A stretch of 64,000 nucleotides of DNA. Source: Alphaproteobacteria bacterium (lineage in GTDB: Bacteria; Pseudomonadota; Alphaproteobacteria; UBA828). The stretch lies in contig CBDCRW010000004.1 of assembly GCA_965221125.1 (NCBI GenBank), positions 640,001-704,000 of the forward strand, read 5' to 3'. The notes under the pieces were generated by a model. It was given only the letters and a program-made list of their open reading frames with translations, was not told the origin of the DNA and made no database searches. A program made the translations under genes and the position numbers. Positions 8,478-32,364 of the stretch are shown here, piece by piece. Each line of letters opens with the position of its first letter. Position 1 is the first letter of the stretch.

Positions 8478-9957
8478 GAGCCACCCCCGTCCGCATCGCG
8501 CGGCAACGATCGGCGACCTCCGCGACGGCCATGATGGTTGCGTCGTTGGCGGCGGCCACCTGCGGGGAGATCCCGTCCGCGAGAAGCGTCCTGCGCTCCT
8601 CGACCAGGGACTGCAGCAGATCCTCGTGAGGCGCGTCACGCCAGGGACGGAACGCGGCGCAGGTGTAGCATGCAAGCGGCGCCAGACGGACACAGCTGCG
8701 CGGGCCCGCGCAGGTTCCCACGCCTCCGCCGGCGGCGGACGCAACGCGACGCGACGGCGCTTCCCCGGCGCCGGATTCGACCTCGCCCGCAACGATCGTG
8801 CCCCTGAACAGCCCGGCCAGCGGCTCCGCCCGGCCATGAAGGGCGGCGTCCATGCGGTCCTGGATCGAGCCGCGCGACTCCACATACACGCCGACGTGCT
8901 GGAGGTCGGTGTGATCGAGAAGGTGAGCGATCAGAACAGGAGGGTGACCCACATCGGCAGCACGCGTCCCGAGAGTGCTCCGGAACCGCCGGGGCGCCAG
9001 GTTGATCGGAGCGGCAGTGCGCGCCGACCGAAGGCCGAGCGCGCTCTGGATGCGCCTCAGAGCGCGGCCGGCACCGCCCCTGCCGATGTGTGCCTCCGCG
9101 AGCGATGCGAAGGCGGTCGCCTCGACGGCAAAGATCGGACGCCGGTCGACCGGAATGCCCCGGAAGCGCTCGTCGCGGGATCGCTCCTCGACGAGTTCCC
9201 TAAGCAGAACGGCAAGCTCGCCAGGGATGACCCGCTCGCGCGTGAGGCGCTTCGGCGTCCTCTTCTTGAGAGACGGCACCAGGAGGCGAGATGCGGCCGA
9301 TCCCGGTGCAGGCGGAACCAGATCGCCACAAGTCAGCATCGACAGCTGGCCGGGCCGGGCCCCCGTTGCGGTCAGCGTGAGAAGAATGCCGAAGTCCTGC
9401 CTGCTCACGCGGCCCTCGCCATACGCCTCGCGTGCCGCAAGGGTGATGCTCTGCAACTCCACATCGGTGAAGGGACCCTTCGTGGGGTGGTGCGTGCGGA
9501 CGGCGGCGCCCTTGACGTTCCCGGGTATCTTGATGCTGCTGAAGAACTGCAGCACGTCGCGGTCGACCCCGGCGTAGCCGCGTGCGACCCAGAACTTCAG
9601 GAACGCCGCGACGTGGCCCAGATAGTGCAGTTGCTCGCGAGCGAGCAGCGACCGGTAGTCCATGAGAGCCGCCGCAGAGATGGTGGCGCCGACCGGGACA
9701 TCCCGCGCCATTCTTGCGAGGGCCTGGACGCCCCCCAACACGGTGTCGGGGGAGCGATCTTCCATGTAGGCAAGGGCAGCCTGCTTGACGTTGTCGGCGT
9801 GCCCGGCGCCCCAATGATCTCGTATCGGCTTGAAGGAGATGCGGGTCACGCCCTTCTCCAGCACGATCTTCCAGACGTCGCCGCCGGAATCGAATCCCGC
9901 ATGGATGCCGCGCTCTCGCGGAGCGCCGGCAGGCTGCAATCCGCCCGGACTACTCAC
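8470..9957 (-). CDS. Tyrosine recombinase (GinB-like) with C-terminal Cys cluster
   Basis: TGARPGQL, RRFRST, LLDH, VGVY; C..C..CYTC. Confidence 0.85.
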   Translation of the reverse strand: MSSPGGLQPAGAPRERGIHAGFDSGGDVWKIVLEKGVTRISFKPIRDHWGAGHADNVKQAALAYMEDRSPDTVLGGVQALARMARDVPVGATISAAALMDYRSLLAREQLHYLGHVAAFLKFWVARGYAGVDRDVLQFFSSIKIPGNVKGAAVRTHHPTKGPFTDVELQSITLAAREAYGEGRVSRQDFGILLTLTATGARPGQLSMLTCGDLVPPAPGSAASRLLVPSLKKRTPKRLTRERVIPGELAVLLRELVEERSRDERFRGIPVDRRPIFAVEATAFASLAEAHIGRGGAGRALRRIQSALGLRSARTAAPINLAPRRFRSTLGTRAADVGHPPVLIAHLLDHTDLQHVGVYVESRGSIQDRMDAALHGRAEPLAGLFRGTIVAGEVESGAGEAPSRRVASAAGGGVGTCAGPRSCVRLAPLACYTCAAFRPWRDAPHEDLLQSLVEERRTLLADGISPQVAAANDATIMAVAEVADRCRAMRTGVAHG

Positions 9958-15303: not shown

Positions 15304-18300
15304 TCAGGCTGCGAGCGGCCAGCGTTCGAGAACGCGTTCCAGCACGCCGGCATTGGGCGCGAATATCCGGGCCCGGAACGAGACGATCTCGACGGTGCAG
15401 CCCATGCGCTTCAGCGCGGCCATATCGGTATCCGCCGGCCCCTCGATCTCGACCCGGTCGGCGCCCATCAGCCTACGCCGCGCGAGCCGCCAACCGTTGG
15501 CGAGAGACAGCGCGGTGCCGCGTTCCATGACCGCCGCGAAGGCTTCCGCGCCGGTCATGGCGGGACCGCCGTCGAGACCGAACCCGGCGCGCACGGAGCG
15601 TACCTGCTCGGCGTCGAGCACGCGTCCGATGAGGGCGATGCCATCGTCACTGGTGAGCCGTCGGACCCGCATGTTCTCGGCGGGCAGGCGGTCCCAGACC
15701 GGCAGTAGCAGGCCGGAGGCGAGCCAGAAGCGCGAGTCCCGGTGGGACGGCAGTCCGGCGATCTCGGCGTCCCAGACGCGCCGCCACCCGGCTTCGTCGG
15801 CCCGGCGCCAGTTGGAGGCGTCGAGCTCGGCCTTCGCCATGGTCTCGGCGGTCGCGGGCCGGATGAGCCGCACCCGCTCCTTCACGCCGCCGTCGTCGAG
15901 CATGCGCGAGGCGGCCGGCAGCACCACGGCGGCGCGCTTCGAGCGGGCGTTGACGGCGAGACGGGGCTTTCCGTCCGGTCCCGGATCCCGCTCGCCGATC
16001 TCCAGCGCGGCGTCGGCGGTGAGCGGCACCAGCCGATCGCGGCGCACGATCTCGACCAGCTCGGTCGCCGCGCCTGTGCCGGGATGCTCGTAGAGCGTCT
16101 CCCGGCCGGCGACGGCGAGCGAGTCGGCGGTCACCGTCTCGACCCCGACCTCGTAGCTGCCGGCCTCGATCGCCTGCTCGATATTGGCGGCGATGCGGGC
16201 CTCCAGCTCGGCAAAGAGCTGGTTCTGCTCGGCGATGGGGAGCGCCAGCAGACGGTTGAGGAACCTGGGCATGGGCGGCAGGTCCTCCTTGAGCGATCCC
16301 TCCCAGGTGAGCTTGAGCCCGGTGGCCTTCTCGAAGCGCTCCAGAGTCCAGCCCTGGATGGACCCGCGCCAGAGCGCGCCGTAGAACTGGCGCAAGGCAG
16401 CCTTGGCATACGGGCTCTCAAGGTTGTCGCTCTCGCGGAACAGCGCCGCGTCGCTGCCGCCCATGGCGGTCTGACTGTCCCGCTGGCCCCGCGTGATGGC
16501 GCCGAGGCTGTCGAGCCGCCGGGCGATGGTGGCGATGAACCGGCGCTCGCCCTTAACGTCCGTAGTGACGGGCCGGAACAGCGGCGCGGAGGCTTGGTGC
16601 GTGCGGTGGGTACGGCCCAGACCCTGGATCGCCTGGTCGGCGCGCCAGCCGGGTTCCAGCAGATAGTGGATGCGGCGTTCCGTGTTCCCGCAGGACAGAT
16701 CGGCGTGGTAGCTGCGGCCCGTGCCGCCCGCCATGGAGAACACGAGGATGCGCTTGCTCCCATCCATGAACGCGGCGGTCTCGGCAAGATTGGCAGAGGT
16801 CGGCCGCGAGCGCAGCGAGAGACGTTCGCCCTTGGCGTCCACGATCCTCACCACTCGGCGCGACCGGCCGGTGACCTCGGCGACGGCCTCGTGCCCGAAA
16901 TGCTGCACGATCTGGTCGAGCGCCGTCGGCACCGGCGGGAGCGCCGCGAGCTTCTCGATCAGCGCGTCGCGGCGGTCCTCGGCCTCCTTGCAGATGACGG
17001 GGTTGCCGTCGTCGTCCCTGGCGGGGCGGCTCAGGAGATTGCCGGCGTCGTCGGTGAAGGGCTCCTGGAGCTGCACCGGGAAGGCGTGCATCAGGTAGGA
17101 GAGAATGGCGTCCCGGGGCGTCAGGTCGATATTGAGATCGTCCCACTCCGAGGCCGGGACGTCGGCGATGCGGCGCTCCATCAGCGCCTCGCCCGTGGAC
17201 ACGAGCTGGACCACGGCGGACCGGCCGGCGGCAAGGTCGGCCTCGATCGCGCGGATGGTCGAGGGGCACTTCATGCCGGTCAGCAGGTGGCCGAAGAAGC
17301 GCTGCTTGGTGCCCTCGAAGGCCGACAATGCCGCCGCCTTGGCGTTCTTGTTGAGCGTGTCCTCGCCCTGGACGATGCCGGTCGCCTTCAGCGCCTCCTC
17401 GATGTTGGCATGGATCACCTTGAAGGCGCCGGCATAGGCGTCGTAGATGCGCCGCTGCTCGGGCGTGAGGGGGTGTTCGAGGATGCCGACCTCGATCCCG
17501 TCATAGGCCAAGGCTCTCGCCTGGTAGAGACCGAGGGCCTTCAGATCGCGCGCCACGACCTCCATCGCGGCGACGCCGCCCGCCTCCATGGCGGAGACGA
17601 ACTCGACGCGCTTCTCGAACGGCGTCTCGCCGGCGCCCCAGAGGCCGAGCCTGCCGGCATAGGCCAGACCCGGCACGGTGGTGGCGCCGGTGGCCGAGAT
17701 ATAGGCGATCCGCGCATCCGGCAGTGCGTTCTGGAGCCGCAGGCCGGCCCGTCCCTGCTGGGAGGGCTTGGTCTCGCCACGCTCGGACTTGGAGCCGGCG
17801 GCGTTGGCCATGGCATGCGCCTCGTCGAAGACGATGACCCCGTCGAAGGCGTGGCGGTCCTCTTCGTCCAATGAGCCCGCCAGCCATTCGACGATCTGGT
17901 CGAGCCGCGAGGGCTTCCCCTGGCGGGACGGCGAGCGCAGCGTGGCGTAAGTCGCGAACAGGATCCCCTCGTCGAGCGGGATCTCCATCCCCTGCCGGAA
18001 ATTGCCGAGCGGGATGACGTCGCTCTCCAGCCCGCCGAGCGCCGTCCAGTCGCGGCGCGCGTCCTCCAGCAGCTTGTCGGACTGGCTGAGCCAGAGGGCG
18101 CGTTTCCTGCCCCGCAGGCGGTGGTCGAGGATGATGGCGGCGACCTGGCGGCCCTTGCCGCATCCGGTGCCGTCTCCCAACATCCATCCCCGGCGGAAGC
18201 GCACCGGCTCCGACAGGGTCTCGCCCCCGGATCCAGTCCGGGGCAGGCTCTCCTGGGTGACGAGGGAGGTGTCGATTTCCTCCCCGGATCCGGTCCGGGG

Positions 18301-19845
18301 CAGGCTCTCGCCGTCCTTCGGGCAGCGGTGGACGGTCTCCCACTGGGAGTCGATCCGGTACTCCGCCGCGAGATGGCGCGAATGGGCCTCGCCCGCCAGC
18401 ACGACGCTCTCGAGCTGGGCATCGGACAGCATGCCGTCCGTTACCACGCGTTCCGGCAGCATCGGCCGCCAGGCCGGTACCGGATGGGGCACGGCGGCCA
18501 TGGCGGCGGACTGCACCAGCGGCGTCGGATGCTCGACCGCGCCCGGCACCCGCACCGCACGCGGCCGCCAGGGAGCGTAGGGACCCGCGTCGGCGGCCGA
18601 CGATTCGGCATCGGCGGTCGCTGTCTCCACCGGCCCGGTCTCGACGACCAGTTCCGATACCGGTCCCCAGTCATGGGCCTGCCGCGTCTCGGGCGTAGAT
18701 ACGGGCTTCTGACCCCGCCGCTTCTCGGTCTTCGGCGCTACCGGCTTGCCGAACAAGTCGCGCGCGGGGCCGGACTGGACCGGGGCGGACGCGATCGGCT
18801 GCCGCTTCGGTACCCGCGCGATGACGGCATCGAGTAGTTCGGCGGCGTTCTCGGCGCGTGCCGTTCCGTCCAGTTCGACAGCGGGTCCGGCGCCGCGCTC
18901 CAGCACGGTGAGGCGGGTGTCGAATCCGGTGCCCCGGCGGGCATAGGCCCGGCCGTCGATCGCCATGGTGAAGACGCAGCGGGCCGGCGGGTCGAGACGG
19001 CCGACGGTGTCGCCCGGCGCGCAATGGGCCGACGTGATCGTCACCAGCCGGCCGCCCGGCGGCAGCATCGAGGCGGCGGAGCGGACATGGCGGAGGTCGG
19101 CGTCGCGGGTGGTGCGGTCGACGCCGGGCGTTGCCGAAAACGGCGGGTTCATCAGGACCACCGTCGGCCGGACGTCGCGCAGCCGGTCCGCGATCGTCTC
19201 GGCGTTGAACGCGGTGACCACCGCCTCGGGGAAGAGCTGCGTCAGCAACCGCGCCCTGGTCTGCGCGTATTCGTTGAGGTGGAGATTGCCTGTGGCGGAG
19301 TTGCCGAGCGCGCACTGCGCCATGACGGCCAGCATCCCGGTGCCGGCGGAGGGTTCCAGCACGACATCGCCCGGCCGGATGGCGGCGGCCTGTAGCGCGG
19401 CATAGGCGAGCGGCAGCGGCGTCGAGAACTGCTGGAGGCGGACCTGCTGCTCGGAGCGCCTGGTATGCGAGGGCTCCAGCGCCGCGAGGGCCTCCAGCAT
19501 CGCCAGCATGCGGCGCGTGCCGTCAATACCGGCGCCCGCATTGCGCCGCATGCCCCGGCCGTAGCGCTGCATGAAGATCACGACGGCCGCTTCGGCGGCC
19601 TCGTAGGCATCCTTCCAGACCCAGGCGCCCTCGGCGTCGGTGGCGCCGAAGGCATCCGTCATGGCGGCCCGCAGCGTTGCGGCATCGAGCGGACGTCCGG
19701 CCTCCAGCACCGGCAGCAGGGTTCGGGCCGCGGCGAACAGGGCGTCGCCCGCGATCGGGCGGGCCGGCGATGCGGCCGGGTCGGTGGGGACGGCGGGAGG
19801 AAGAGAACGCGCGAGGGCGTCCGGCGCCGGATGGGCGTCGAGCAT
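15304..19845 (-). CDS. N6-adenine methyltransferase-strawberry notch (SF2-like) helicase fusion
   Basis: LEPSAGTG and NPPF MTase motifs; GDGTGCGKGRQ, DEAH, SATG, AGGTGRSYHAD, QGLGRTHR. Confidence 0.92.
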   Translation of the reverse strand: MLDAHPAPDALARSLPPAVPTDPAASPARPIAGDALFAAARTLLPVLEAGRPLDAATLRAAMTDAFGATDAEGAWVWKDAYEAAEAAVVIFMQRYGRGMRRNAGAGIDGTRRMLAMLEALAALEPSHTRRSEQQVRLQQFSTPLPLAYAALQAAAIRPGDVVLEPSAGTGMLAVMAQCALGNSATGNLHLNEYAQTRARLLTQLFPEAVVTAFNAETIADRLRDVRPTVVLMNPPFSATPGVDRTTRDADLRHVRSAASMLPPGGRLVTITSAHCAPGDTVGRLDPPARCVFTMAIDGRAYARRGTGFDTRLTVLERGAGPAVELDGTARAENAAELLDAVIARVPKRQPIASAPVQSGPARDLFGKPVAPKTEKRRGQKPVSTPETRQAHDWGPVSELVVETGPVETATADAESSAADAGPYAPWRPRAVRVPGAVEHPTPLVQSAAMAAVPHPVPAWRPMLPERVVTDGMLSDAQLESVVLAGEAHSRHLAAEYRIDSQWETVHRCPKDGESLPRTGSGEEIDTSLVTQESLPRTGSGGETLSEPVRFRRGWMLGDGTGCGKGRQVAAIILDHRLRGRKRALWLSQSDKLLEDARRDWTALGGLESDVIPLGNFRQGMEIPLDEGILFATYATLRSPSRQGKPSRLDQIVEWLAGSLDEEDRHAFDGVIVFDEAHAMANAAGSKSERGETKPSQQGRAGLRLQNALPDARIAYISATGATTVPGLAYAGRLGLWGAGETPFEKRVEFVSAMEAGGVAAMEVVARDLKALGLYQARALAYDGIEVGILEHPLTPEQRRIYDAYAGAFKVIHANIEEALKATGIVQGEDTLNKNAKAAALSAFEGTKQRFFGHLLTGMKCPSTIRAIEADLAAGRSAVVQLVSTGEALMERRIADVPASEWDDLNIDLTPRDAILSYLMHAFPVQLQEPFTDDAGNLLSRPARDDDGNPVICKEAEDRRDALIEKLAALPPVPTALDQIVQHFGHEAVAEVTGRSRRVVRIVDAKGERLSLRSRPTSANLAETAAFMDGSKRILVFSMAGGTGRSYHADLSCGNTERRIHYLLEPGWRADQAIQGLGRTHRTHQASAPLFRPVTTDVKGERRFIATIARRLDSLGAITRGQRDSQTAMGGSDAALFRESDNLESPYAKAALRQFYGALWRGSIQGWTLERFEKATGLKLTWEGSLKEDLPPMPRFLNRLLALPIAEQNQLFAELEARIAANIEQAIEAGSYEVGVETVTADSLAVAGRETLYEHPGTGAATELVEIVRRDRLVPLTADAALEIGERDPGPDGKPRLAVNARSKRAAVVLPAASRMLDDGGVKERVRLIRPATAETMAKAELDASNWRRADEAGWRRVWDAEIAGLPSHRDSRFWLASGLLLPVWDRLPAENMRVRRLTSDDGIALIGRVLDAEQVRSVRAGFGLDGGPAMTGAEAFAAVMERGTALSLANGWRLARRRLMGADRVEIEGPADTDMAALKRMGCTVEIVSFRARIFAPNAGVLERVLERWPLAA
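18225..18309. repeat. Two in-frame copies of the palindromic mini-repeat, each encoding ESLPRTGSG
   Basis: ccccggatccagtccggggcaggctctc and ccccggatccggtccggggcaggctctc. Confidence 0.85.
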
Positions 19846-19911
19846 GGCAGGCTCCGTGCTGGAATGGACCGGGCAGGTCGGCGGCGCGGCACGGAACTCC
19901 CGCCCCGCTTC

Positions 19912-19953
19912 GCCGGACCGCCCAAGGCCGGCTGACCGGACTCCCGCCGGCGC
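19912..19953. repeat. Conserved intergenic repeat (copies at 20688-20729, degenerate at ~25485)
   Basis: 28-bp GGCCGGCTGACCGGACTCCCGCCGGCGC identical at 19926 and 20702, both preceded by GCCGGACC. Confidence 0.8.
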
Positions 19954-20062
19954 AATGCGCGCCCGTGAAACCCCACGCAAGCGCGGCTGGTGTATGCGTT
20001 CAGGAAGGTGTGGGAGCGCCTGGGGAGCCCGCGCCGCTCAGGGCGGGCTCAGGCGGGACGGG

Positions 20063-20489: not shown

Positions 20490-20770
20490 GCCGGTCTCCT
20501 TTCGGTGTGAATTGGCTTCCCCGAAACGTCTCTCTCCTCATGGGAGCGCGCGGCGCCCGGGCGGAGGGGAGAAACACCGCCCGGACGAAGCGCGAGATGC
20601 CGGATCACCTCCTTTCGCTGTGGAGCCTGCGGGGCGAGAAACCGTCGCCGGGCAGGGGTGCGGCGCGAGTCCTCCCGCCCCGACCCCGCCGGACCACCCC
20701 CGGCCGGCTGACCGGACTCCCGCCGGCGCGAGGCGCGCCGGGGAAACCCGGCGCGGGACGTGCGGCGCCG

Positions 20771-21193
20771 TCAGACGAAATACTCGCCTGCCGCCGTGAA
20801 GGTGGACTCGTTGGCAGTGAGGGTCTCGTCGATCGCCTCGTCCGAGGTCAGGTGCTCGTACTCGGCGCGAAGCTGGCGGTAGAGCCAGCGCGCGAGATCG
20901 CGCATGGCCTCGATCACCGTGTCCTCGGCACCGTCAGTCGGCGGCTGCCAGGTCGCGCTGTCGCGCTCGACCTCGATGGACATGGTGTATTCGTGGTAGT
21001 AGCGGCCCTGCTGCCTGATGGTACTGTGCAGGGAATAGAAATTGCGCTTCTGGGCGGTCTGCAAGGCGTCGGCGATGCGGTGCAACTCGTCATCCCTGGG
21101 CGCGTGAGCGCGGATGGCGCGGGCCGCTCCCCGGGCGTGGGCATACGTACCTTCGAACGACGCTCCGTCTCCCTGCGACCAGAATCCGCTCCA
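20771..21193 (-). pseudogene. 3' half of a conserved ICE/plasmid protein (often labelled antitoxin of a TA stability system), split by the RIT element
   Basis: SGFWSQGDGASF...LARWLYRQL continues in frame from the 24636-24867 fragment. Confidence 0.8.
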
Positions 21194-21217
21194 ATGCCGA
21201 TATCGGCATTGGAGCGG
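21186..21217. repeat. Perfect 32-bp palindrome at the RIT left junction
   Basis: CCGCTCCAATGCCGATATCGGCATTGGAGCGG equals its own reverse complement. Confidence 0.95.
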
Positions 21218-21374
21218 TTGAACCGAGAACAGGACTATGCCGCGTTCGTCAGCTAAGGCATTGATTTCCCCCACAATGGTGTAGGCGTTATCGGCATATT
21301 CACAGGGTTGGTTGCGCGTCCGGATTTCCTGATGGTCCTTCTCTCCCTTCACCACGAAGGGAGAGAAGCGAACA

Positions 21375-22619
21375 ATGTCGAACGTCGAGAAGTCTTCGAA
21401 GCCGAGCGAGACGGGCTGGCTCATGCCGTACCGGCACGCCTACCTGGGCGAACTCGACAAGCTCGGTTACACCGCGCGTACGATCAGCAGGCACGCGGCG
21501 AGCGTAAACGCCTTCATCGCACAGGTGGACCTTCGCCAAGTCGGTTCAGGAGAGATCGACGCAACCGCGCTCGCGGAGGTTCGAGCTGCTGTTCCCGAAC
21601 TGCGGTCGACCGACGAGCAACGCCAACGCCGGTGGTGCATCGCGCAGTTCACGGCCTGGCTCGCAAGTACCGGCGTAATCGACCCGCTGATACCTCCTCC
21701 TCCGCCGGCACCGGGATCGCTGGAACACCTCACGGCTGCATACGGCGACTGGATGCGTCAACAGCAGGGACTGGGCGAGGGAACGATTGAGGTTCGCGAG
21801 TCTGCTCTCAGGCGCTTCATGGCCTTCCGCTTCGGTGCCGTCCCGGGCGATCTGGATGACATCACCGCGGATGACATCAGGGGATTCCTCAACCTGCCCT
21901 CAGCGCGGAAAGGGCACGGGCCCGGAATAATCACGCGGGCATCGCACCTGCGGAACATCTTCAGGTTCCTGTACGCAACCGGTCGCACTCGGCTGAACCT
22001 CGCCCTCTGCGTTCCCGGCATCCCGAGACGGGCCCCGCGCCTATCACGCCACCTGTCCGCCGGCGAGGTACGGCAACTGGTCGACGCGGTTCACGAGGAC
22101 AACGGCTTCGGCCGACGTAACCGCGCGATGCTGCTTCTGATGGCGCGGCTCGGGCTGCGACCCAAGGAGGTGGCCGCAATACGGCTCGACGACATCAACT
22201 GGGCGGCGGGGGAAATCGTCGTCCGCGGCAAGGGCGGGCAGCACGAGCGCATGCCGCTCCCCACCGATGTCGGAGAGGCCATCGTTGCCTACATCTGCGA
22301 TGGCCGTGCCGGCAACACGCGGCATCTGTTTGTCTCCGCGCGAGCTCCCCACAGGCCGGTGACATCCCAGACAATCAACAGGACGCTCAGCCGGGCCTTC
22401 GCAAGGACAGAGCTGGAGCCGCCCAACGGCGAGATCCGGTGCCACCTAATGCGCCATTCCCTGGCCGTCGCCATGCTGGGCCGAGGCGCATCGCTGGGGG
22501 AAGTGGGCGAGGTGCTGCGCCACCGCTCCCTTCGGACGACTACGACCTACGCCCGCTACGACTTCCAGGCCCTGCGGTCGGTCGCCCGCCCGTGGCCGGT
22601 GCCGGGAGAGAGCCGATGA
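21375..22619 (+). CDS. RIT tyrosine recombinase A
   Basis: LGLRPKE, GKG, HLMRH, LRH, TTTY. Confidence 0.92.
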   Translation: MSNVEKSSKPSETGWLMPYRHAYLGELDKLGYTARTISRHAASVNAFIAQVDLRQVGSGEIDATALAEVRAAVPELRSTDEQRQRRWCIAQFTAWLASTGVIDPLIPPPPPAPGSLEHLTAAYGDWMRQQQGLGEGTIEVRESALRRFMAFRFGAVPGDLDDITADDIRGFLNLPSARKGHGPGIITRASHLRNIFRFLYATGRTRLNLALCVPGIPRRAPRLSRHLSAGEVRQLVDAVHEDNGFGRRNRAMLLLMARLGLRPKEVAAIRLDDINWAAGEIVVRGKGGQHERMPLPTDVGEAIVAYICDGRAGNTRHLFVSARAPHRPVTSQTINRTLSRAFARTELEPPNGEIRCHLMRHSLAVAMLGRGASLGEVGEVLRHRSLRTTTTYARYDFQALRSVARPWPVPGESR

Positions 22620-23563
22620 CGACCTTCATCGAACACCTCGAAGAATACATCGCCGAACGTCGTCATTACGGCGGTGACTGGTCTGTCGTCCAATGGAACT
22701 TGCGCCCGTTGGCCGCCTTCGCAGATGCCGAGGGTGCGGAATGGATTACGGTTGACCTGATCCTGCGCTGTAAGGAGCAGTACCTTCCTGCGAGTTCCAT
22801 AAGTTGGAGCAACCGGCTGAGCTCGGCGCGCGGCTTTACGGCTTGGCTCAAGGCCCGTGACCCCCGAACGGAAGTCCCACCCAAGGGGCTGGTTCCCAGG
22901 CGTTATCAGCGCCCGGCACCCTACATCTACTCCGATGACGAGATCGTCCAGATCGTCACCGAGGCCGCGAAGCTGCCGTCTCCGCGTGGGTTACTAGGAA
23001 AGACCCTTGCCACACTGTTCGGCCTGCTGGCTGCTAGCGGGCTGCGAATCGGCGAGGCACTCGGGCTTGACGATCGGGACGTCGACCTCGACGCCGCCGT
23101 CCTGCATGTAAGCAACGCCAAGAACGGCGATGGCCGATTTATCCCGATAACGGACTGTACTGCCGATCGCCTCAGCACCTACCGCGGCGAGCGGAACCGG
23201 GTTCTCGGCACCGCGCCGACAGCGTTCTTCACCAGCGACAGCGGGAAACGGCTGAGAAAACTTACGGCGGAGCAGAAGTTCGCAAGGCTCGGTCAGGCGA
23301 TCGGCCTGCGGGAGACACCGGTCGGAGGCGGATATGGCCGCGGTCCCCGCCTCCACGACATGCGTCACACCTTTGCCACCAAGACGATTATCGACTGGTT
23401 CCGAGCGGGACGCGACCCTGACCATGAGATGTACAAGTTGAGCACATACCTGGGCCACAAGGATCCGACTGGGACCTACTGGTACATCGAGGCGGTGCCC
23501 GAACTCCTGCAACTCGTCAGTGAGCGCGCCGAGCGGAGCTTCACCGAAGGAGAGGCATCATGA
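22616..23563 (+). CDS. RIT tyrosine recombinase B
   Basis: ATGA overlap at 22616; SGLRIGE, HDMRHTFA, YLGH, YWY. Confidence 0.92.
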   Translation: MTTFIEHLEEYIAERRHYGGDWSVVQWNLRPLAAFADAEGAEWITVDLILRCKEQYLPASSISWSNRLSSARGFTAWLKARDPRTEVPPKGLVPRRYQRPAPYIYSDDEIVQIVTEAAKLPSPRGLLGKTLATLFGLLAASGLRIGEALGLDDRDVDLDAAVLHVSNAKNGDGRFIPITDCTADRLSTYRGERNRVLGTAPTAFFTSDSGKRLRKLTAEQKFARLGQAIGLRETPVGGGYGRGPRLHDMRHTFATKTIIDWFRAGRDPDHEMYKLSTYLGHKDPTGTYWYIEAVPELLQLVSERAERSFTEGEAS

Positions 23564-24555
23564 CTTCGTACCCGCTCCCCATCCTCGTGGAACGCTTCTT
23601 TACCGACCGCCTCGCGAACCAGTTGGACGCCACGCCCAACACGGTGGACAGCTATCGCCGTAGCTTCGTGCTGCTTCTGAGGTTCGCACGTGACCGTCTC
23701 GGCCGCGATCCAACTGACATGCTTGTCACCGACATTGATGCCGAGCTCGTCGGGGAGTTCCTCGACCACATCGAAACCGAGCGCGGCAACACTGCCCGCA
23801 GTCGCAACACCAGACTGACAGCGGTCCGCTCCTTCTTCAGCTTCGTTGCCATCAACGAACCGGGGCTCCTCCACCACTGCCAACAGGTGCTCGCCCTGCC
23901 CGCAAAGCGCTACGAGCGGCCGGCGCTCTCGTATCTTGAGCACGACGAGATCGAGGCGCTCCTCGCTGCCCCCAATATTGCGACATGGTACGGGCGGCGG
24001 GACAGGACCATCCTCCACCTCTTCGTGCAGACCGGCCTGAGGGTCTCGGAGTTGATCGGCCTCGACTGTGGTGATGTCGATCTCGGAACCGGCGCCCATG
24101 TCAGCTGCTGCGGCAAGGGACGCAAGCGACGGAAAACGCCTTTGAGGAAGGACACGGTGGAGTCGCTCCAGGGCTGGCTTGAGGAACGCGGCGGAGCCGA
24201 TGACCAGCCATTGTTCGTGAGCAACCGCAACGGTCGTCTCAGCCGGGACGCGGTCGAGCGAATCGTCCACAAGTACGCCGCGCTGGCATCCAAGGAATGT
24301 CCAGCGCTCAAGGGCAAGAGGATAAGTCCCCACTGCCTTCGACACACTGCGGCGATGACGCTGCGTCACCGCGGTGTCGGCGGCACGTTGATCGCGCTGT
24401 ACCTGGGGCACGAGTCTGTCGCGACGACGAGCATCTACCTTCACGCGGACATGAAACTGAAGGAGAAAGTCCTGGAACGGACGAAGCCGATTGAGGCGCC
24501 GAGCGGACGATACAGGCCCGGAGACGCGCTTCTGGCGTTCCTCGAATCCCTATGA
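23560..24555 (+). CDS. RIT tyrosine recombinase C
   Basis: TGLRVSE, GKGRK, HCLRH, LGHE, TSIY. Confidence 0.92.
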   Translation: MTSYPLPILVERFFTDRLANQLDATPNTVDSYRRSFVLLLRFARDRLGRDPTDMLVTDIDAELVGEFLDHIETERGNTARSRNTRLTAVRSFFSFVAINEPGLLHHCQQVLALPAKRYERPALSYLEHDEIEALLAAPNIATWYGRRDRTILHLFVQTGLRVSELIGLDCGDVDLGTGAHVSCCGKGRKRRKTPLRKDTVESLQGWLEERGGADDQPLFVSNRNGRLSRDAVERIVHKYAALASKECPALKGKRISPHCLRHTAAMTLRHRGVGGTLIALYLGHESVATTSIYLHADMKLKEKVLERTKPIEAPSGRYRPGDALLAFLESL

Positions 24556-24635
24556 ATATGCCGATAACTCTGGCGCAGCTCTGAGTGAAATCAATGCCTT
24601 AGGCCGTGAACGCGGCATAGTCCAGTTCTCGGCAT

Positions 24636-24867
24636 ATCCGGTCCAGAACAAGTGCGGCTTGTCCCGCGTTCCGCCGCCATAGAGGCGCACCGGGCTGGTG
24701 CGCAGCGTCACGCCGAGGATTCCGCATATCGTCTGGAAATCCTCGTAGACGAAATCGTACCACTCGTAGTCGAGGCAGGACTCGCGATACCAGGCGCGGG
24801 CGGCTTCCTTCGCGGCGTCCGAAAGCTCGTCGATCGTGTAGACCGTGATCTCGACGACCTGGGGCAT
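24636..24867 (-). pseudogene. 5' half of the RIT-interrupted gene
   Basis: GAGGAG RBS; MPQVVEITVYTIDELSDAAKEAARAWYR...KPHLFW. Confidence 0.8.
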
Positions 24868-24870
24868 GGG

Positions 24871-25404
24871 TCAACACTCCTCGGGACGGGGGTTGCGGGG
24901 GATGCTGCCGCCGGCGACGCGCACGAACCGGACCGCCTCCTGGATGCGGCGGAGCGCGACGCGGTCGTGATCGGGATTGGCGCGGGACCAGGTGACCGGC
25001 CGGCGCGCGTACCAGGCTCCCGAATCCGCAACCTGCCCTTCGGCGTATGCGACGAAGTGTTTGCTGGCTGAAATCGCCCACGTCCCGGCGGGTGCGGCGT
25101 CGAGGAAGGTGCCGAGCGTGATCGCGCGTACGTCAAAGGGAACATCCGCGAAGATGCGCTCCCAGACTTCCTCCCGCCGGGCGAAACGGCGGTTGCGGTA
25201 TTTCGGATGGCGGAGAGCGTAATCCGGCGTCCAACCGAACTCCGCCAGCGCGGCGGCGAGCTCGTCGATGAAGACGCCGTTGACCGAGGGGCGGTCGAAC
25301 AGGCGGCGGATGACGGCGGCGGCCTCGTGGGTGAGCACGCCGGCGATCGCGGAAATCGCGGACGGGCCGCACTTCGTGGCGCGGCCGGTGATGCGGTGGA
25401 GCAT
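24871..25404 (-). CDS. Hypothetical protein (177 aa)
   Basis: GGAGA RBS; CGPSAISAIAG...HF..Y pattern reminiscent of a papain-like fold (weak). Confidence 0.65.
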   Translation of the reverse strand: MLHRITGRATKCGPSAISAIAGVLTHEAAAVIRRLFDRPSVNGVFIDELAAALAEFGWTPDYALRHPKYRNRRFARREEVWERIFADVPFDVRAITLGTFLDAAPAGTWAISASKHFVAYAEGQVADSGAWYARRPVTWSRANPDHDRVALRRIQEAVRFVRVAGGSIPRNPRPEEC

Positions 25405-27675: not shown

Positions 27676-29412
27676 TCAGGCGCCGCCCGCCGCGTTCTCG
27701 ATGTCGGCAAGCGTCACGGTCACGTCGGGGCGGTGGATGCGGATGTCGACGGCGCGGCCCCTGGGCACGAACCAGAACAGCTCCCGCCGGACGACCTCGG
27801 CGATCGAGGTGCGGCAGGCCTCGTCATCGCTGAGCAGCAAGCGCGTCGCGAGGTGCAGCGCGTCCTCGTCGAAGCGGGCGAGCTGGGTCTCGTAGCTGTC
27901 CGCGCCGGCATCGTCCGACGGCGAGAAGAAGCCGTCGCGGAGCAGTGCGGCGAGTTCGTGGGGCTGGAGCGCGCTGTCTTTCGCGACCAGCGGAAGGGCG
28001 TCGTGGAGCCAGCTCCAGGCCTCGCCCGCGAAGGCGAGATCGGTCGGCAGGCCGAGGGTGGGCGCCGGGCCGTCCGCCGCCCGGACGGCGAGCGCGATGC
28101 GGACCGCTTCGGGCCTGGGCGGCAGCTCAGCGGCGGTCGGCCCCGTCCGCTCCGGCAGCGGCGCGTCGTCGATCGCGGAGGATTTCCCGTCCAGCACGAG
28201 CTCGGTCACGATCCCGGTCACCCGGTCGATGGCGTCATACCAGGCGTAGCCTTCGAGCCGGCGGTCGGCCTCGAACAGGCGCGGCGCGATGCCGTTGCGG
28301 TCGGCGGCGCGCCACAGCGCCTGCGCCTCGGGCGGATCGAGATCGCAGTCCATGACCAGCGCGTCCGCGCCTGCCGGGGCGAGCTTCGGCGGATCGCGCC
28401 AGTCGTCGACATTGGCGAGCGCGGGCCGCCAGGGGCGCAGCACGGCCGGCGACGGCGCGATGTCGATGCCGGCATCGCGCGCCCGCGTCCAGTCCTCGAA
28501 GGCCGGGCGCGGCGAGGGATCGGCCGCCATGGCGCGGTAGATCGCCCGCCGCGCGGCCTTGCGCATGTCCTTGAGGAAGGCGTTCTCGACCGCCTCCTTG
28601 CGGGCCGGCAGGACCAGTTCGAGATCGGGGCAATCGTCGACGTCCGCCAGGACGCTCCAGGTCGGACCGTGGACGGTGTCGACCGTGGGCAGGCCGACGG
28701 TCAGGGTGAGGCCGAAGAAGTTGAGGTCGGGGTTCCTGTAGCCGCTGCGGCGGTTCCTGAAGATGCCGAAGACGAGACCCTGCCATTGCTCGGCATGAAC
28801 CGCGCCGTCGAGGAAGGCGCGGCGGGAAAGATCTTCGGCTGCGGAGTCTCCGTCCGTGCCGTCCTCGAACACGACCGGCAGCGGGTAGTGCCGGGCGGCG
28901 TTCTCCGCGGCTGTCTTGATCGCCGCGGCAGCCTCGGTCGCCTCGAATGAAATCGACGTCCCCCAGGGATACGGGGCTTCATCGTCGGCCTGCACTTCGG
29001 CCCCGGCCTCGCCGAGAAAGTGCTCGGGCGTCAGTTGGACCCGCCAGCCGGTCGATACCTCGGCGGCGGATGAATGCGGCCTGGACGAAACGATGCAATT
29101 GCGGCGCGCCAGGCTGGCGAAGCCGAAGCCGGCGGCGTCCTCGCGCCGCACCAGCTCCCGGTCCCAGCCGTTCTCGCCGAAGCTGAGCAGGACGGCGGGA
29201 TCGGCGATGCCGGCGCCGTCGTCTGAAACGGTGACGGTGAGCGGCGTCTCGCCCGCGGTGGCGGCGGAAACCGAGATACGCACCCGCGTGGCGCTGGCGC
29301 GGCGGCTGTTCTGCAAGGTCTCGGCGAAGATGTCGGCGAGGGTGGCGGCGTAGATGCGGGTGACCCGCTTGACGGCGCTCTCGTGGATACGGGCGCGAAT
29401 GGTGCGGTTCAT
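27676..29412 (-). CDS. GHKL (HATPase_c) ATPase with long C-terminal region
   Basis: ETLQNSRRA (N box), DDGAGI (G1), AAGFGFASL (G2); GGAGG RBS. Confidence 0.85.
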   Translation of the reverse strand: MNRTIRARIHESAVKRVTRIYAATLADIFAETLQNSRRASATRVRISVSAATAGETPLTVTVSDDGAGIADPAVLLSFGENGWDRELVRREDAAGFGFASLARRNCIVSSRPHSSAAEVSTGWRVQLTPEHFLGEAGAEVQADDEAPYPWGTSISFEATEAAAAIKTAAENAARHYPLPVVFEDGTDGDSAAEDLSRRAFLDGAVHAEQWQGLVFGIFRNRRSGYRNPDLNFFGLTLTVGLPTVDTVHGPTWSVLADVDDCPDLELVLPARKEAVENAFLKDMRKAARRAIYRAMAADPSPRPAFEDWTRARDAGIDIAPSPAVLRPWRPALANVDDWRDPPKLAPAGADALVMDCDLDPPEAQALWRAADRNGIAPRLFEADRRLEGYAWYDAIDRVTGIVTELVLDGKSSAIDDAPLPERTGPTAAELPPRPEAVRIALAVRAADGPAPTLGLPTDLAFAGEAWSWLHDALPLVAKDSALQPHELAALLRDGFFSPSDDAGADSYETQLARFDEDALHLATRLLLSDDEACRTSIAEVVRRELFWFVPRGRAVDIRIHRPDVTVTLADIENAAGGA

Positions 29413-29499: not shown

Positions 29500-31941
29500 C
29501 TACTGGACGCGGCGGAGGAACTCGGGGATCTCCATCGGGTCCGGGTGGGCGGCGTGCCCGTTGACCGGACCGGTCGCTGCGATGCCGTCCGGACCACCCG
29601 TGACAGCCGGATCGGAATCGGCCTCTCCGGCATCGCCCGGATCGGCATCCGGATCGGGATCGGCCGCTTCGGCACTGCCGTTGCCGGCATGCGCCGTCGC
29701 GCCCTCCGACGGGTCCGGCTCGGGAGCGGCATCCGTCGCCTGGCCGTTGCCGGCCGGCGCCGTTTCATCCGGATCGGTCCCGGCGCCGGCGGCCGGTTCT
29801 ACGGGTTCCGGCTTGTCGACCGGCACCGTCCCGGCGTCATCCGCCGCAGCGTCCCCGGCGTCTCCGACCGTCCGCCCGGTGTCGAACGCCGCGAAGCCGG
29901 GCGGCGTCCAGGCGAGGGCGGCCGCGTGCATCGCGGCGCTCACGCCGATGGGTGGGTCGCCGGCGGCGAAGGCGGCTTCCATCGCTTCGGCCAGCGCGGG
30001 CTTCCTGTATTTGGACCGCGCCGACGCCCAGTTGAGGCCGAACACCGTGCGGGCGATGTCGAGGACCCGCGCCTTGGCGATCCGCGACCACAGCATCGCC
30101 GCCGTCGGGCGGACATGCCTGGCGAAGTCGATGTCGAGCCGGGCGACTGTGGCTTCGAGCTCGGGACGGGCCTGGGGCTCGAAGGAGAGCTGGCCCTTTA
30201 CCGTGCGCGCGACGCAGGCGGCGAACAGTGCCTCCTTCTCCGCCCGGGGCAAGGCCCTGAGCGCGGCGAAGGACTGGCCGCCGTCCCCGATGGTGAGCCA
30301 GTCGAGAGACAGATGCGAGCGGTCCTCCAGCATGGCCTCACCGGGCGACCAGTCGGCGAAGTCGTCGTCGTTCATGCGGATGTTGGGCCGGTCCGGGCTT
30401 TCCTTGACCGCAATGTCGAGGGCGTGGTCGTGATAACCCGGCGCGAACACGGCCCGGGCCATCTGGAACAGCGCGAGGTCGAAGGCGGCCTCGAAGTCGC
30501 CGGCGAGATGCGCCTTGATGAGCGCGGTGCGGATCGCGCGCAGATCGTCCGCGAGGCCGATGCCGACGCCAGCCTCCTTGCGCGCCTCGGATTCGGGATC
30601 CTTCGGCGGTGCCATCGGCCCCGAAACGGACGGATTGACGGACGGGCCGGCAATGCGATCGCCATGACCGGCGGTGTGGACGCCTTGCGCGGCGGCGTGC
30701 GCGTCGTGACCGTTGCCGGCCCGGGTCGCCGCACCGTCGGGCTGCGCCGGCTTCGGCATGTCCTCAGGTCTAACCAGTCCCTGGATGACCTGGAGAGAGG
30801 CGTCATTGCCGATGGTGACGATGCAGCCGGCAATCGCGATATCCTCGCGCCGGAACACCGCGCGCGCCTCGATGGCGCCCTCGATCTCGTCGAGACGTGC
30901 TACGACGGCTTCACCCTCGGCGACCAGTTCGTCGGTCCAGTCGTCCTCATCGAGATTGGCTAGCTCGTCGTGACGGGTCGCCAGCTTCTCCATCTCGGCC
31001 CGCTCCTCGTCGGTCGGCGTGCCGGGCTGCGGCTCGATGCGCCCGTAGCGGGCGGTGTGGTCCCACGCGACCTCGACCATGGGGACGGCCCACTTCCAGC
31101 GCGTCGCCAGCTCGTCGGCTGCGGCCTGGAGCTTGTCGGTCGCCAGCTTCTCCAGCAGCACCGGGTCCTCGAACCAGACGCCGTGCTCGTGTTCGTCGGC
31201 GAAAAGGTCGCGCATGACCTGACCGCCGGCGGTCTCATAGGCCTCGACCCCGACGAAACGGGCGATGACCGAGGCGCCCGGCACGCGCTCCTCGGTGAGC
31301 AGGCGCTTCACCTGCCAGGCGGACGGGCGGTAGGCCTGTCCGGAGACCTGCCCCCAGACCGCCATCTGGCGCTCGCGGTCGGCGGTGACGGCGAAGGCCT
31401 TCAGCACTTCGAGGTCGATCTCGTCGGCCCGGTAGGCGTCCAGCAGCTCCGGCGCGGCGTTGCCGAGGCGCAGGCGCTGCTCGACGATGCGCTCGGACGC
31501 GCCGAACCGCGCCGCGATGGCGGACACCGACTGGCCGGCGTCGGCCAGCTCCTTGAACGCGACCACCTGGTCGGCGGGGTGCATGGCGATGCGGATGACG
31601 TTCTCGGCGAGCGAGAGTTCGGAGGGATCGGCGTCGCCGGACCTGACCTGGCAGGGAACCGGATGGTCGGCGTCGAATACGCCGTCCTCGACCAACTCCT
31701 GCATGGCCTTCAGGCGGCGGCCTCCGGCGACCACGGCATAATGCTCGGCGCCATCCTCGTCGGGTTCATCCGGGCGGACGACAAGGTTCTCCAGCAGCCC
31801 GAGGGCGGCGATGGAAGCCTTGAGCGAAGCGTCGGCCTGAGCATCGGGCGGGGTCTTGCGGACGTTCTCGGGGGCGAGCGCGAGCCGGGAGAGCGGGATC
31901 TCCCGGATGAGCGGTTCGGCCCTGGGGGCGATGAAGTTCAT
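29500..31941 (-). CDS. Long ParB/Spo0J-family protein
   Basis: ENVRK, GLLENL, VVAGGRRLKA, SLAEN..R, HPADQ, HTH; GGAG RBS before ATG at 31941. Confidence 0.9.
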   Translation of the reverse strand: MNFIAPRAEPLIREIPLSRLALAPENVRKTPPDAQADASLKASIAALGLLENLVVRPDEPDEDGAEHYAVVAGGRRLKAMQELVEDGVFDADHPVPCQVRSGDADPSELSLAENVIRIAMHPADQVVAFKELADAGQSVSAIAARFGASERIVEQRLRLGNAAPELLDAYRADEIDLEVLKAFAVTADRERQMAVWGQVSGQAYRPSAWQVKRLLTEERVPGASVIARFVGVEAYETAGGQVMRDLFADEHEHGVWFEDPVLLEKLATDKLQAAADELATRWKWAVPMVEVAWDHTARYGRIEPQPGTPTDEERAEMEKLATRHDELANLDEDDWTDELVAEGEAVVARLDEIEGAIEARAVFRREDIAIAGCIVTIGNDASLQVIQGLVRPEDMPKPAQPDGAATRAGNGHDAHAAAQGVHTAGHGDRIAGPSVNPSVSGPMAPPKDPESEARKEAGVGIGLADDLRAIRTALIKAHLAGDFEAAFDLALFQMARAVFAPGYHDHALDIAVKESPDRPNIRMNDDDFADWSPGEAMLEDRSHLSLDWLTIGDGGQSFAALRALPRAEKEALFAACVARTVKGQLSFEPQARPELEATVARLDIDFARHVRPTAAMLWSRIAKARVLDIARTVFGLNWASARSKYRKPALAEAMEAAFAAGDPPIGVSAAMHAAALAWTPPGFAAFDTGRTVGDAGDAAADDAGTVPVDKPEPVEPAAGAGTDPDETAPAGNGQATDAAPEPDPSEGATAHAGNGSAEAADPDPDADPGDAGEADSDPAVTGGPDGIAATGPVNGHAAHPDPMEIPEFLRRVQ

Positions 31942-32364
31942 TCCAGTCTCCATGGAGGGTGTTGTTTCGCACGTTATTTGACGCCGAATCTCCCAGATTA
32001 TTTGACGTGATCGCTGCCCTGATTTCCCAGATTGCTCGGTCTTTTCCGGATCGAAGCGTAGGAGCTCATGGTCTCTGCGGGCGGTCCGGGGTCGCTGTCT
32101 GATTGAGGTTTGGACTGGTGCTTGAGGAGAGCTGACGAGGTGTCGCGCGGCCGTCGGCGCGTCAAGCGGCTGCGCCGCTCCTGCGCTTCGCTTCGGCCCT
32201 TCGGGTGACTCGCCACCGTCCACACGACGAAGTGCTGCCATGGCCTGAAGCAAGCTTCCGGCCACGGACTGGCCGCTCACCTGACGTAGTATCCCGGTGG
32301 AGGCGCAGCGCCTTCCGGACCGTTGGGGAAGGGTGGTTCCCGACGGCGGTTCCGGCTCGAACCC

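What the first reader, a model, noticed from the sequence alone, without database searches (positions are those of the whole stretch)
21184..21230. RIT end holds an inverted near-copy of its target core in a second att-like site
Seen: the element is flanked by 10-bp cores ATCCGCTCCA (21184) and ATCCGGTCCA (24636), and removing it restores ...HLFW-SGFWSQ... in frame. The joined ends read TCGGCAT-[core]-ATGCCGA. Directly inside the left end is a second unit TCGGCAT-[TGGAGCGGTT]-GAACCGA whose 10-bp spacer is the reverse complement of AACCGCTCCA, 9/10 identical to the target core. This creates the perfect 32-bp palindrome. ATGCCG motifs recur through both IRs. Inference: the element may store or rewrite a target-matching spacer, giving DNA-encoded target choice for a tyrosine-recombinase trio. 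RIT-associated palindromes have been noted before, but to my knowledge the mechanism is unresolved.
Basis: partly seen in the sequence, partly recalled or inferred. Interest (0 to 1): 0.75.

Follow-up and report, generated by a model that had tools for sequence, protein, structure and literature searches.

The report
RIT transposon double crossover site
The palindrome at one end of this three-recombinase (RIT) mobile element is most likely the unused second recombination site of the element's joined ends, and its target-like spacer is a carried-over copy of an earlier insertion site, not a programmable guide.

Summary
An intact ritA-ritB-ritC element (about 3.45 kb) splits a 215-aa gene of unknown function. 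A perfect 32-bp palindrome lies at the ritA end, and its inner spacer mirrors the target core.

The palindrome is not special to this copy. In 23 RIT loci from distant lineages, one end carries a ~20-bp "cap": two copies of the 10-bp terminal arm set back to back. A 6-bp core lies on each side of the cap, the inner one inverted.

The internal core matches its own target far better than other elements' targets (5.0 of 6 against 1.9 of 6 when pairings are shuffled). However, five near-identical Phaeobacter copies at five loci keep the internal core fixed while the local target cores differ. In those copies the cap-side junction carries the element's own core, and the capless junction keeps the native core.

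Best reading: the free element has a joint IRR-core-cap-core-IRL with two inverted crossover sites. Integration through one site leaves the other inside. The 6-bp cores are carried "coupling sequences", as in Tn554 and SE elements. Spacer-guided targeting is not supported, because 1 to 3 mismatches in 6 are tolerated.

This scan noted RIT end palindromes before on other DNA. No experiment was possible.

The parts
20771..21193 (-). C-terminal half of the interrupted target gene (starts WSGFWSQGDGASFE...). Intact homologues are 215-216 aa and match no Pfam or NCBIfam family.
21186..21191 (+). Outer cap-side core X (CCGCTC). By analogy with the Phaeobacter copies, this is probably the 6 bp carried in by the element (a W-S-G codon allele, found in 0 of 18 intact homologues).
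21192..21211 (.). The cap, CAATGCCGAT|ATCGGCATTG: two 10-bp terminal recombinase-binding arms set back to back. It is identical in L005 and L008.
21212..21217 (+). Internal core Y (GAGCGG), an inverted copy of the core. Together with the cap arm and the IRL tip it forms a complete second att-like site.
21186..21217 (.). Perfect 32-bp palindrome (X core + cap + Y core, plus one further pair on each side).
21218..21307 (+). Left inverted repeat (IRL). Its terminal arm TTGAACCGAG differs at several positions from the IRR arm and from the arm of relatives (ATATGCCGAC). Further ATGCCG/CGGCAT arms lie at 21237 and 21292.
21375..22619 (+). ritA, a 414-aa tyrosine recombinase with a ~115-aa N-terminal extension. 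Catalytic residues are intact.
22616..23563 (+). ritB, a 315-aa tyrosine recombinase. It overlaps ritA by ATGA.
23560..24555 (+). ritC, a 331-aa tyrosine recombinase. It overlaps ritB by ATGA.
24548..24637 (+). Right inverted repeat (IRR), with terminal arm CTCGGCATAT at 24628-24637. A direct copy of the arm motif lies 17 bp inside (24613) and an inverted one at 24558.
24638..24643 (+). Capless-junction core Z (CCGGTC), probably the native target core (W-T-G allele, as in 6 of 18 intact homologues).
24636..24867 (-). N-terminal half of the interrupted target gene (MPQVVEITVY...KPHLFWTG).

Best explanation
The element is an intact RIT (recombinase-in-trio) transposon. The palindrome at its ritA end is a "cap": two copies of the 10-bp terminal recombinase-binding arm set back to back, with a 6-bp crossover core on each side.

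In the free, most likely circular, form the ends would read IRR tip - core - cap - inverted core - IRL tip. That joint holds two complete core-type sites in inverted orientation. Integration crosses over in one of the two cores with a 6-bp stretch of an asymmetric target site. The unused site stays inside the element as the "second att-like site". The cap therefore ends up at only one end of the element, at either the ritA or the ritC end, but always on the same side of the target.

The 6-bp cores are carried along like the coupling sequences of Tn554, SE elements and Tn916. After insertion the capless junction keeps the native target core, and the cap-side junction holds the core the element brought. 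The internal core is a record of a target used earlier through the other site. Because RITs hit homologous sites, all three cores look alike.

Shown by sequence comparison: the anatomy, its recurrence in other lineages, the fixed joint and the carried cores. Inferred: the circular intermediate, the exact cleavage positions, any strand bias, and the roles of RitA, RitB and RitC.
For: (1) Anatomy in the window, and 18 empty sites in relatives that lack the cap.

(2) The same plan appears in 23 loci with ritB only 26-92% identical: IR tip - core - cap - inverted core - flank at one end, and IR tip - core - flank at the other. The cap is on the ritA side in 14 and on the ritC side in 9.

(3) The internal core compared with the outer core averages 5.00 of 6 identical. 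The capless core compared with the outer core averages 5.22 of 6. Shuffled pairings give 1.9 of 6, and 0 of 20000 shuffles reach the observed values. With one locus per lineage (n=18) the means are 5.11 and 5.39.

(4) Where the cap centre is asymmetric, its orientation relative to the body fits a single fixed joint IRR-K-IRL: Phaeobacter 5 of 5, a gut-metagenome cluster 9 of 10, Paraburkholderia 2 of 3. The cap lies on the same target side in 5 of 5, 10 of 10 and 3 of 3, even though the body is found in both orientations.

(5) In the Phaeobacter set, the outer cap-side core of L205, L206 and L208 (GGCTCA) is exactly the reverse complement of the internal core of L204 and L207 (TGAGCC). The capless junctions keep in-frame native HExxH codons. 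The internal TGCGTG equals the native core of the L204 target, which is what a carried record of a former site would look like.

(6) All three recombinases keep their catalytic residues.

(7) A published precedent exists for 6-bp carry-over in Tn554 and SE elements (PMC10214605, passages read).
Against: No circle junction, empty donor site or inversion of this copy was seen. The only public runs are assembled contigs, and the contigs that skip the element are diverged paralogues or strains. In a mobilome study of another bacterium, RIT DNA was protected from exonuclease but circular junctions could not be determined (PMC5737581, passage read).

Two loci break the fixed-joint rule (L151, L011) and need an extra inversion to be explained. 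At least six RITs with both flanks readable have no cap (L035, L084, L126, L142, L147; L195). One acidobacterial cluster lacks a recognisable left repeat.

The rule [quoted passage not shown] rests on 4 informative copies of one lineage plus consistency in the window. The window's IRL terminal arm is degenerate, so this copy may no longer move. Ricker et al. 2013, the main RIT survey, could not be read.
Confidence: 0.62

Rival explanations
1. One reading: the internal spacer is a stored, rewritable DNA guide. Its match to the target chooses the insertion site, so the element is programmable.
For: The internal core covaries with the target across lineages. It also follows the target allele within the window's own lineage: window CCGCTC against L005/L008 CCCCGR, while the cap is identical in all three. 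L007, whose three recombinases are 64-78% identical to the window's, sits at a different site of the same gene family. It has core TGGCAG/TGGCAA and internal TTTCAG.
Against: Five Phaeobacter copies at least 99.97% identical keep the internal core fixed at five loci whose native cores differ. Carried and native cores differ at 1, 2 and 3 of 6 positions, yet integration occurred. In L008 the outer core matches the internal one at only 2 of 6, and in L137 at 3 of 6. Six base pairs cannot explain hitting the same codon box of one gene family every time, so the flanks must be read by protein.
Confidence: 0.08
2. Hairpin model: the element moves as a linear molecule with hairpin ends, or through folded single strands. 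The palindrome, including the mirrored target core, is made anew at each insertion by opening or resolving a hairpin, in the manner of telomere resolvases.
For: The palindrome is perfect and includes target-like bases. Nielsen et al. 2017 found RIT DNA protected from exonuclease without detectable circle junctions and proposed hairpin intermediates (PMC5737581, passage). Some RITs sit between long inverted duplications of their target (L085; L051, L128 and L140).
Against: The inner and outer cores are exact mirror images in only 10 of 23 loci. In six loci the inner core equals the capless core but not the outer one (L008, L018, L026, L106, L136, L137). In Phaeobacter the inner core is constant and is not the mirror of the local outer core in L204 and L207. 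Asymmetric cap centres are not what replication of a hairpin would give.
Confidence: 0.1
3. In-place invertible switch: the three sites serve mainly to flip the recombinase body, or the cap, at a fixed locus, and the copy in the window is a resident invertible segment and no longer a transposon.
For: Near-identical RITs at one and the same locus occur in three configurations in different gut metagenomes. L151 and L011 need an in-place inversion to be explained. The window's RIT and its target gene are shared as a block with L005 and L008 at the same site.
Against: Identical copies at five different plasmid loci and two chromosomal loci in one Paraburkholderia genome show real movement. 16 of 18 configurations fit alternative integration through a fixed joint, which in-place inversion alone does not predict. 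This reading can coexist with the best explanation.
Confidence: 0.1
4. The palindrome is a regulatory hairpin (a terminator or operator upstream of ritA) and its likeness to the target is incidental.
For: It lies about 160 nt upstream of ritA and could fold as a 16-bp stem.
Against: In 9 of 23 loci the cap lies downstream of ritC instead. Its halves are copies of the terminal repeat arm. A 9-of-10 match to the target core at a fixed position has a chance probability of about 3e-5 (own calculation).
Confidence: 0.03

Closest known systems
RIT (recombinase in trio) elements (Van Houdt et al. 2009 and 2012; Ricker et al. 2013)
   Same: Three overlapping tyrosine-recombinase genes in the order ritA, ritB, ritC, about 3.4-3.5 kb, flanked by inverted repeats, and inserted in a gene of an integrated mobile region. 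Van Houdt 2012 already mentions an inverted repeat and an "overlapping palindromic sequence" at the ends (PMC3414803, passages read).
   Different: Nothing in the element itself differs from the family. What is added here is an interpretation of the palindrome as a double crossover site with carried 6-bp cores. [quoted passage not shown] They also say that target specificity and movement are untested (PMC10214605). Ricker 2013 was not readable and may describe more.
[quoted passage not shown]
   Same: These are transposons with several tyrosine recombinases. They insert site-specifically and carry 6 bp from the donor flank into the new site instead of duplicating the target (PMC10214605, passages). 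The Phaeobacter RIT copies show the same kind of carried 6 bp.
   Different: Those elements have no back-to-back arm cap and no second inverted site. They insert in one orientation and need an extra small protein (TnpC, Srap). The relationship of the recombinases was not tested here.
Tn916 / CTnDOT coupling sequences
   Same: Integration and excision tolerate non-identical overlap sequences. The junction bases come from the former site.
   Different: Those elements use a single integrase plus Xis and have low target specificity. They have no terminal inverted repeats of about 100 bp and no cap. This comparison is from general knowledge, not from a call.
Lambda-type overlap homology; Cre/loxP and Xer/dif core sites
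   Same: Each RIT site looks like a simple core-type site: two inverted arms of about 10 bp around a 6-bp spacer. The recombinases are Xer-like in sequence (all matches below the Xer cut-offs).
   Different: Lambda Int and Cre need identical overlaps, whereas here 1 to 3 mismatches of 6 are seen between carried and native cores. RITs have two sites sharing a cap, extra subterminal arms and three recombinases.
CTX phage attP (two inverted sites that together make the Xer substrate)
   Same: Two inverted att half-regions sit close together in the free element.
   Different: In CTX phage the two sites pair in single-stranded DNA to form one site. In RITs each site is complete in duplex form and either can be used. 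This comparison is from general knowledge, not from a call.

Membership tests
RIT (recombinase in trio) element | Three adjacent tyrosine-recombinase genes on one strand with short (4-8 bp) overlaps | tested here: met
   Genes at 21375-22619, 22616-23563 and 23560-24555. All three match Pfam Phage_integrase. ATGA overlaps are present at both gene boundaries.
RIT (recombinase in trio) element | Distinct RitA, RitB and RitC types in that order, with RitA the longest because of an extra N-terminal DNA-binding part | tested here: met
   The three proteins are 414, 315 and 331 aa. RitA has a ~115-aa N-terminal extension. Each of the three finds its positional counterpart in the trios of about 100 other loci. 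No subgroup HMMs (Smyshlyaev 2021) were available, so typing rests on order and homology only.
RIT (recombinase in trio) element | Catalytic residues present in all three proteins | tested here: met
   R, K, HxxR, H and Y columns are invariant in the three-way alignment.
RIT (recombinase in trio) element | Flanking imperfect inverted repeats, element about 3.5 kb | tested here: met
   Inverted repeats of 98 nt at 77%. The insertion is 3452 bp relative to intact homologues.
RIT (recombinase in trio) element | Mobility as a unit | tested here: inconclusive
   The window's genome holds a single copy. The same site is occupied in L005 and L008. Movement is shown only for relatives: Phaeobacter at 5 loci and Paraburkholderia at 2 loci. 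No excision product of this copy was found.
Tn554/SE-type carry-over of a 6-bp coupling sequence | Junction bases at a new site derive from the former site; no true target duplication | tested here: inconclusive
   This fits 4 of 4 informative Phaeobacter copies. It also fits the window: X core is the W-S-G allele, absent from 18 intact homologues, and Z core is the W-T-G allele, present in 6 of 18. No donor-recipient pair has been proven.
Guide-directed (programmable) recombinase systems | Changing the stored guide changes the target, so the guide matches each new target | tested here: not met
   The internal core is invariant at five loci whose native cores differ, and mismatches are tolerated.

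The most novel reading that the evidence does not exclude
RIT joints hold two independently renewable 6-bp memory cores. Each would be copied from the last target used through that site by a strand-biased exchange like that of Tn554 and SE elements. Likeness between a stored core and the target would then bias which allele or paralogue of the target gene is hit next. On this reading the element's own DNA fine-tunes target choice, and the double site lets it enter in either orientation.
Probability: 0.2. Interest if true: 0.75.

Novelty: new member of a known kind. Interest (0 to 1): 0.5.

Why it matters
RIT elements are widespread in bacteria, yet the papers I could read state that their transposition has never been reproduced in the laboratory. 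Those papers also say their target specificity and mode of movement are untested (PMC10214605; PMC3414803).

The comparison made here turns a puzzling palindrome into a concrete, testable model. It predicts where the crossovers lie, what the free joint should look like, why the palindrome sits at only one end, why both orientations occur, and why the junction bases vary.

It also shows that the attractive idea of a programmable DNA guide is probably wrong. That should save effort. RITs repeatedly sit in conserved boxes of genes of other mobile elements, so they may matter for the biology of plasmids and integrative elements.

Tried and rejected
1. Other copies or solo caps in the window's genome. 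The element is single-copy. Sixteen places match the 16-bp cap centre within 2 mismatches. The four I read (three with 1 mismatch, one with 2) lie in GC-rich sequence with no extended palindrome; the other eleven were not examined. The control for this search (the reversed pattern) is weak.

2. More close relatives at other loci. The species-genome scan kept the best 80 of 310 relatives and gave four close ones (L005-L008). The metagenome scan kept 80 of 280 and gave L084 and L085. The family-level genome search gave only L195, which has no cap. The covariation test in the window's own lineage therefore rests on one target gene with two alleles plus L007.

3. Public sequencing runs. These are held only as assembled contigs. 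Contigs that join across the element differ by about 10-14% and are other alleles or strains. This gives no verdict on excision, circles or inversion.

4. Function of the target gene. No Pfam or NCBIfam family was found.

5. An acidobacterial cluster (L019 to L125). I could not find a left repeat; the arm motifs lie only downstream of ritC. This is unresolved.

6. Ricker et al. 2013 is not held. Four literature searches found no paper describing the cap as a double crossover site. That holds only for the library searched.

7. One search failed on a script error and was rerun.

8. A target duplication made by a DDE-type transposase was rejected. No such gene is present, and the two flanking cores differ in the way that carried cores do.

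Full report
**1. What is there**

Between 21375 and 24555 lie three tyrosine-recombinase genes on the + strand. They match Pfam Phage_integrase with E-values from 1e-16 to 1e-35. They have ATGA overlaps, and R-K-H-R-H-Y are invariant in all three. They are Xer-like but fall far below the Xer cut-offs. This is a RIT (recombinase in trio) element.

Imperfect inverted repeats of 98 nt at 77% span 21210-21307 and 24548-24645. The perfect 32-bp palindrome at 21186-21217 is the longest in the window. The ATGCCG/CGGCAT motif occurs 7 times in the 248 nt of the ends against 0.46 expected.

**2. The insertion**

The flanks are the two halves of one gene on the - strand. A search of 49 genomes of the same order with the C-terminal half gave matches in 12 genomes, counting the window's own. 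Of 19 loci fetched from relatives, 18 hold an uninterrupted copy in which the two halves abut. One (L175) matched the C half only. These empty sites carry neither the cap nor the inner core, so the palindrome came in with the element. The gene has no Pfam or NCBIfam family. It sits among genes typical of integrated conjugative elements.

**3. The palindrome is a general part of RITs**

I collected 79 loci from species genomes and 80 from metagenomes with the ritB protein. I mapped the three genes on them, aligned the upstream region against the reverse-complemented downstream region, and read outward from both repeat tips.

In 23 loci one end reads repeat tip, 6-bp core, flank. The other end reads repeat tip, 6-bp core, a palindrome of about 20 bp, inverted 6-bp core, flank. 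Three loci were dropped before counting: L110 as a duplicate, L132 because its registration was off by one, and L147 as a spurious palindrome.

The 20-bp piece, which I call the cap, is two copies of the 10-bp repeat tip set back to back. For example, the tip CTCCACATAA goes with the cap TTATGCGGTG|CACTGCATAA. In the window, the tip CTCGGCATAT goes with the cap CAATGCCGAT|ATCGGCATTG.

By this register the window's cores are CCGCTC (outer, 21186-21191), GAGCGG (inner, 21212-21217) and CCGGTC (capless end, 24638-24643). The cap is on the ritA side in 14 loci and on the ritC side in 9. Detection of the cap needed only the 10+10 palindrome, so it did not depend on the cores matching.

**4. Covariation**

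The inner core and the outer core of the same locus agree at 5.00 of 6 positions on average. The capless core and the outer core agree at 5.22 of 6. With the pairing shuffled among loci the means are 1.89 and 1.93, and 0 of 20000 shuffles reach the observed values. With one locus per lineage and target (n=18) the observed means are 5.11 and 5.39.

In the window's own lineage the cap is identical in the window, L005 and L008, but the cores differ in concert. The window has CCGGTC, CCGCTC and CCGCTC. L005 has CCCCGA, CCCCGG and CCCCGA. These fit two natural alleles of the target, W-T-G-F and F-R-G-F, both seen in empty sites.

**5. The internal core does not follow the current target**

Phaeobacter inhibens plasmids carry one RIT, at least 99.97% identical, at five different plasmid loci. 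All five insertions are in the HExxH box of diverged ardC-like genes. Reading outward from the repeat tips:

- L204: IRL-TGAGCC-K1-GGCCCA-flank and IRR-TGCGTG-flank.
- L207: IRL-TGAGCC-K1-GGCCCA-flank and IRR-TGGGCC-flank.
- L205 and L206: IRR-TGCGTG-rcK1-GGCTCA-flank and IRL-TGGGCC-flank.
- L208: IRR-TGCGTG-rcK1-GGCTCA-flank and IRL-TGGGTC-flank.

The inner core is fixed for each side, whatever the local core is. In L205, L206 and L208 the outer cap-side core GGCTCA is exactly the mirror of the other inner core, TGAGCC. The whole piece IRR-TGCGTG-cap-GGCTCA therefore travelled together. The capless junction keeps the native codons (HELAH, HELTH, HEATH).

TGCGTG is the mirror of the native core of the L204 target, so it reads as a record of a former site. 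Carried and native cores differ at 1 of 6 positions (L205, L206), 2 of 6 (L208) and 3 of 6 (L204). Identity is therefore not required.

**6. A fixed joint with two exits**

Where the cap centre is asymmetric, its orientation can be followed.

- Phaeobacter: 5 of 5 copies fit a single joint IRR-rcK1-IRL.
- A gut-metagenome cluster of RITs at least 98.7% identical, all at one target: 5 copies read IRR-K, 4 read IRL-rcK, 1 reads IRR-rcK and 0 read IRL-K. That is 9 of 10 fitting.
- Paraburkholderia: L009 and L010 fit; L011 does not.

In all three sets the body occurs in both orientations relative to the target, yet the cap is always next to the same half of the target (5 of 5, 10 of 10, 3 of 3). 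L102 and L103 show the same flip of the body.

This is what one expects if the free element has the joint IRR-core-cap-core-IRL, either core can cross over with an asymmetric target, and the repeat tip always joins one target arm while the cap arm joins the other. The two exceptions can be explained by an inversion between the inner site and the capless site.

**7. Applied to the window**

The capless core CCGGTC encodes W-T-G, as in 6 of 18 intact homologues. The outer and inner cores CCGCTC encode W-S-G, seen in 0 of 18. The likely history is that the element arrived carrying CCGCTC in both joint sites and crossed over with a CCGGTC target. It then left its own core on the cap side.

The left repeat tip of this copy (TTGAACCGAG) deviates from that of its relatives (ATATGCCGAC), so the copy may be impaired. 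It is single-copy in its genome.

**8. What is not shown**

No joint, empty donor site or inversion of this copy could be observed. Some RITs have no cap: L035, L084, L126, L142 and L147 and L195. Some sit between long inverted duplications of their target (L085; L051, L128 and L140). One cluster lacks a left repeat. The cleavage positions, any strand bias, and the division of labour among RitA, RitB and RitC are all inferred.

**9. Literature**

- Van Houdt et al. 2012 (passages read) mention an inverted repeat and an overlapping palindrome and say they do not fit the usual sites.
- Nielsen et al. 2017 (passage read) propose hairpin intermediates.
- Idola et al. 2023 (passages read) list RIT target specificity and movement as not tested. 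They describe the 6-bp carry-over of SE and Tn554 elements.
- Smyshlyaev et al. [quoted passage not shown]
- Janssen et al. 2010 (passage read) note RITs in radC and in an IS66 transposase gene.
- Ricker et al. 2013 could not be read.

Four searches found no description of the double site.

Earlier notes of this scan reached similar readings on other genomes. I formed my reading before seeing them and tested it on my own data.

**10. Verdict**

The value of the finding lies in a testable model of how that family moves.

Noticed in passing
window 20755-24882 compared with L005 and L008: The interrupted gene plus the RIT is shared as one block at 85.6-88.5% identity. The neighbouring genes are only 72-75% identical (L008) or not alignable (L005). 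The block may therefore spread between related integrative elements, perhaps by recombination in the flanking gene.
   Followed up: partly
window 15304-19980 (-), 27676-29412 (-), 29500-32280 (-): The neighbours look like an integrated conjugative element: a 1558-aa helicase of the Strawberry-notch type with a methyltransferase part, a protein with an HATPase_c domain, and a 926-aa protein with a ParB N-terminal domain.
   Followed up: partly
L009-L011, L147, L204-L208, L085: RITs of different lineages sit in conserved catalytic boxes of genes of other mobile elements. One such box is ...HTLRH|SFATHL... of a tyrosine-recombinase gene (Paraburkholderia, and probably L147). Another is the HExxH box of ardC-like genes (Phaeobacter plasmids, L085; also annotated beside the Sinorhizobium hit H1).
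   Followed up: partly
L085, L051, L128, L140: These RITs are flanked by long inverted duplications of the target gene (for L085, more than 150 bp on each side with a few mismatches). This could come from inversion between two copies or from an assembly artefact.
   Followed up: no
L084 1-105: This close relative (ritB 93% identical) has its ritC-side junction in the same target gene as the window. Its ritA side, however, abuts unrelated DNA with no cap, as if the inner site had recombined with a secondary site.
   Followed up: no
L019, L021, L024, L027, L054, L114, L117, L120-L125: This is an acidobacterial RIT cluster (88-99% identical) with a cap and arms downstream of ritC. No recognisable left repeat lies upstream of ritA, and homology between members ends at different points on the left.
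   Followed up: partly
L195 (G043): This relative is 72% identical in DNA. It has no cap, and its terminal repeats extend 18 bp further, ending in a face-to-face arm pair without a 6-bp core.
   Followed up: partly
window 8696-8713: This is the only other perfect palindrome of 18 bp or more in the window. It was not examined.
   Followed up: no
L007: This RIT, whose three recombinases are 64-78% identical to the window's, is inserted about 45 codons further along the same gene family (after ...RRNFWQ). Related RITs can therefore use different sites of one gene.
   Followed up: partly
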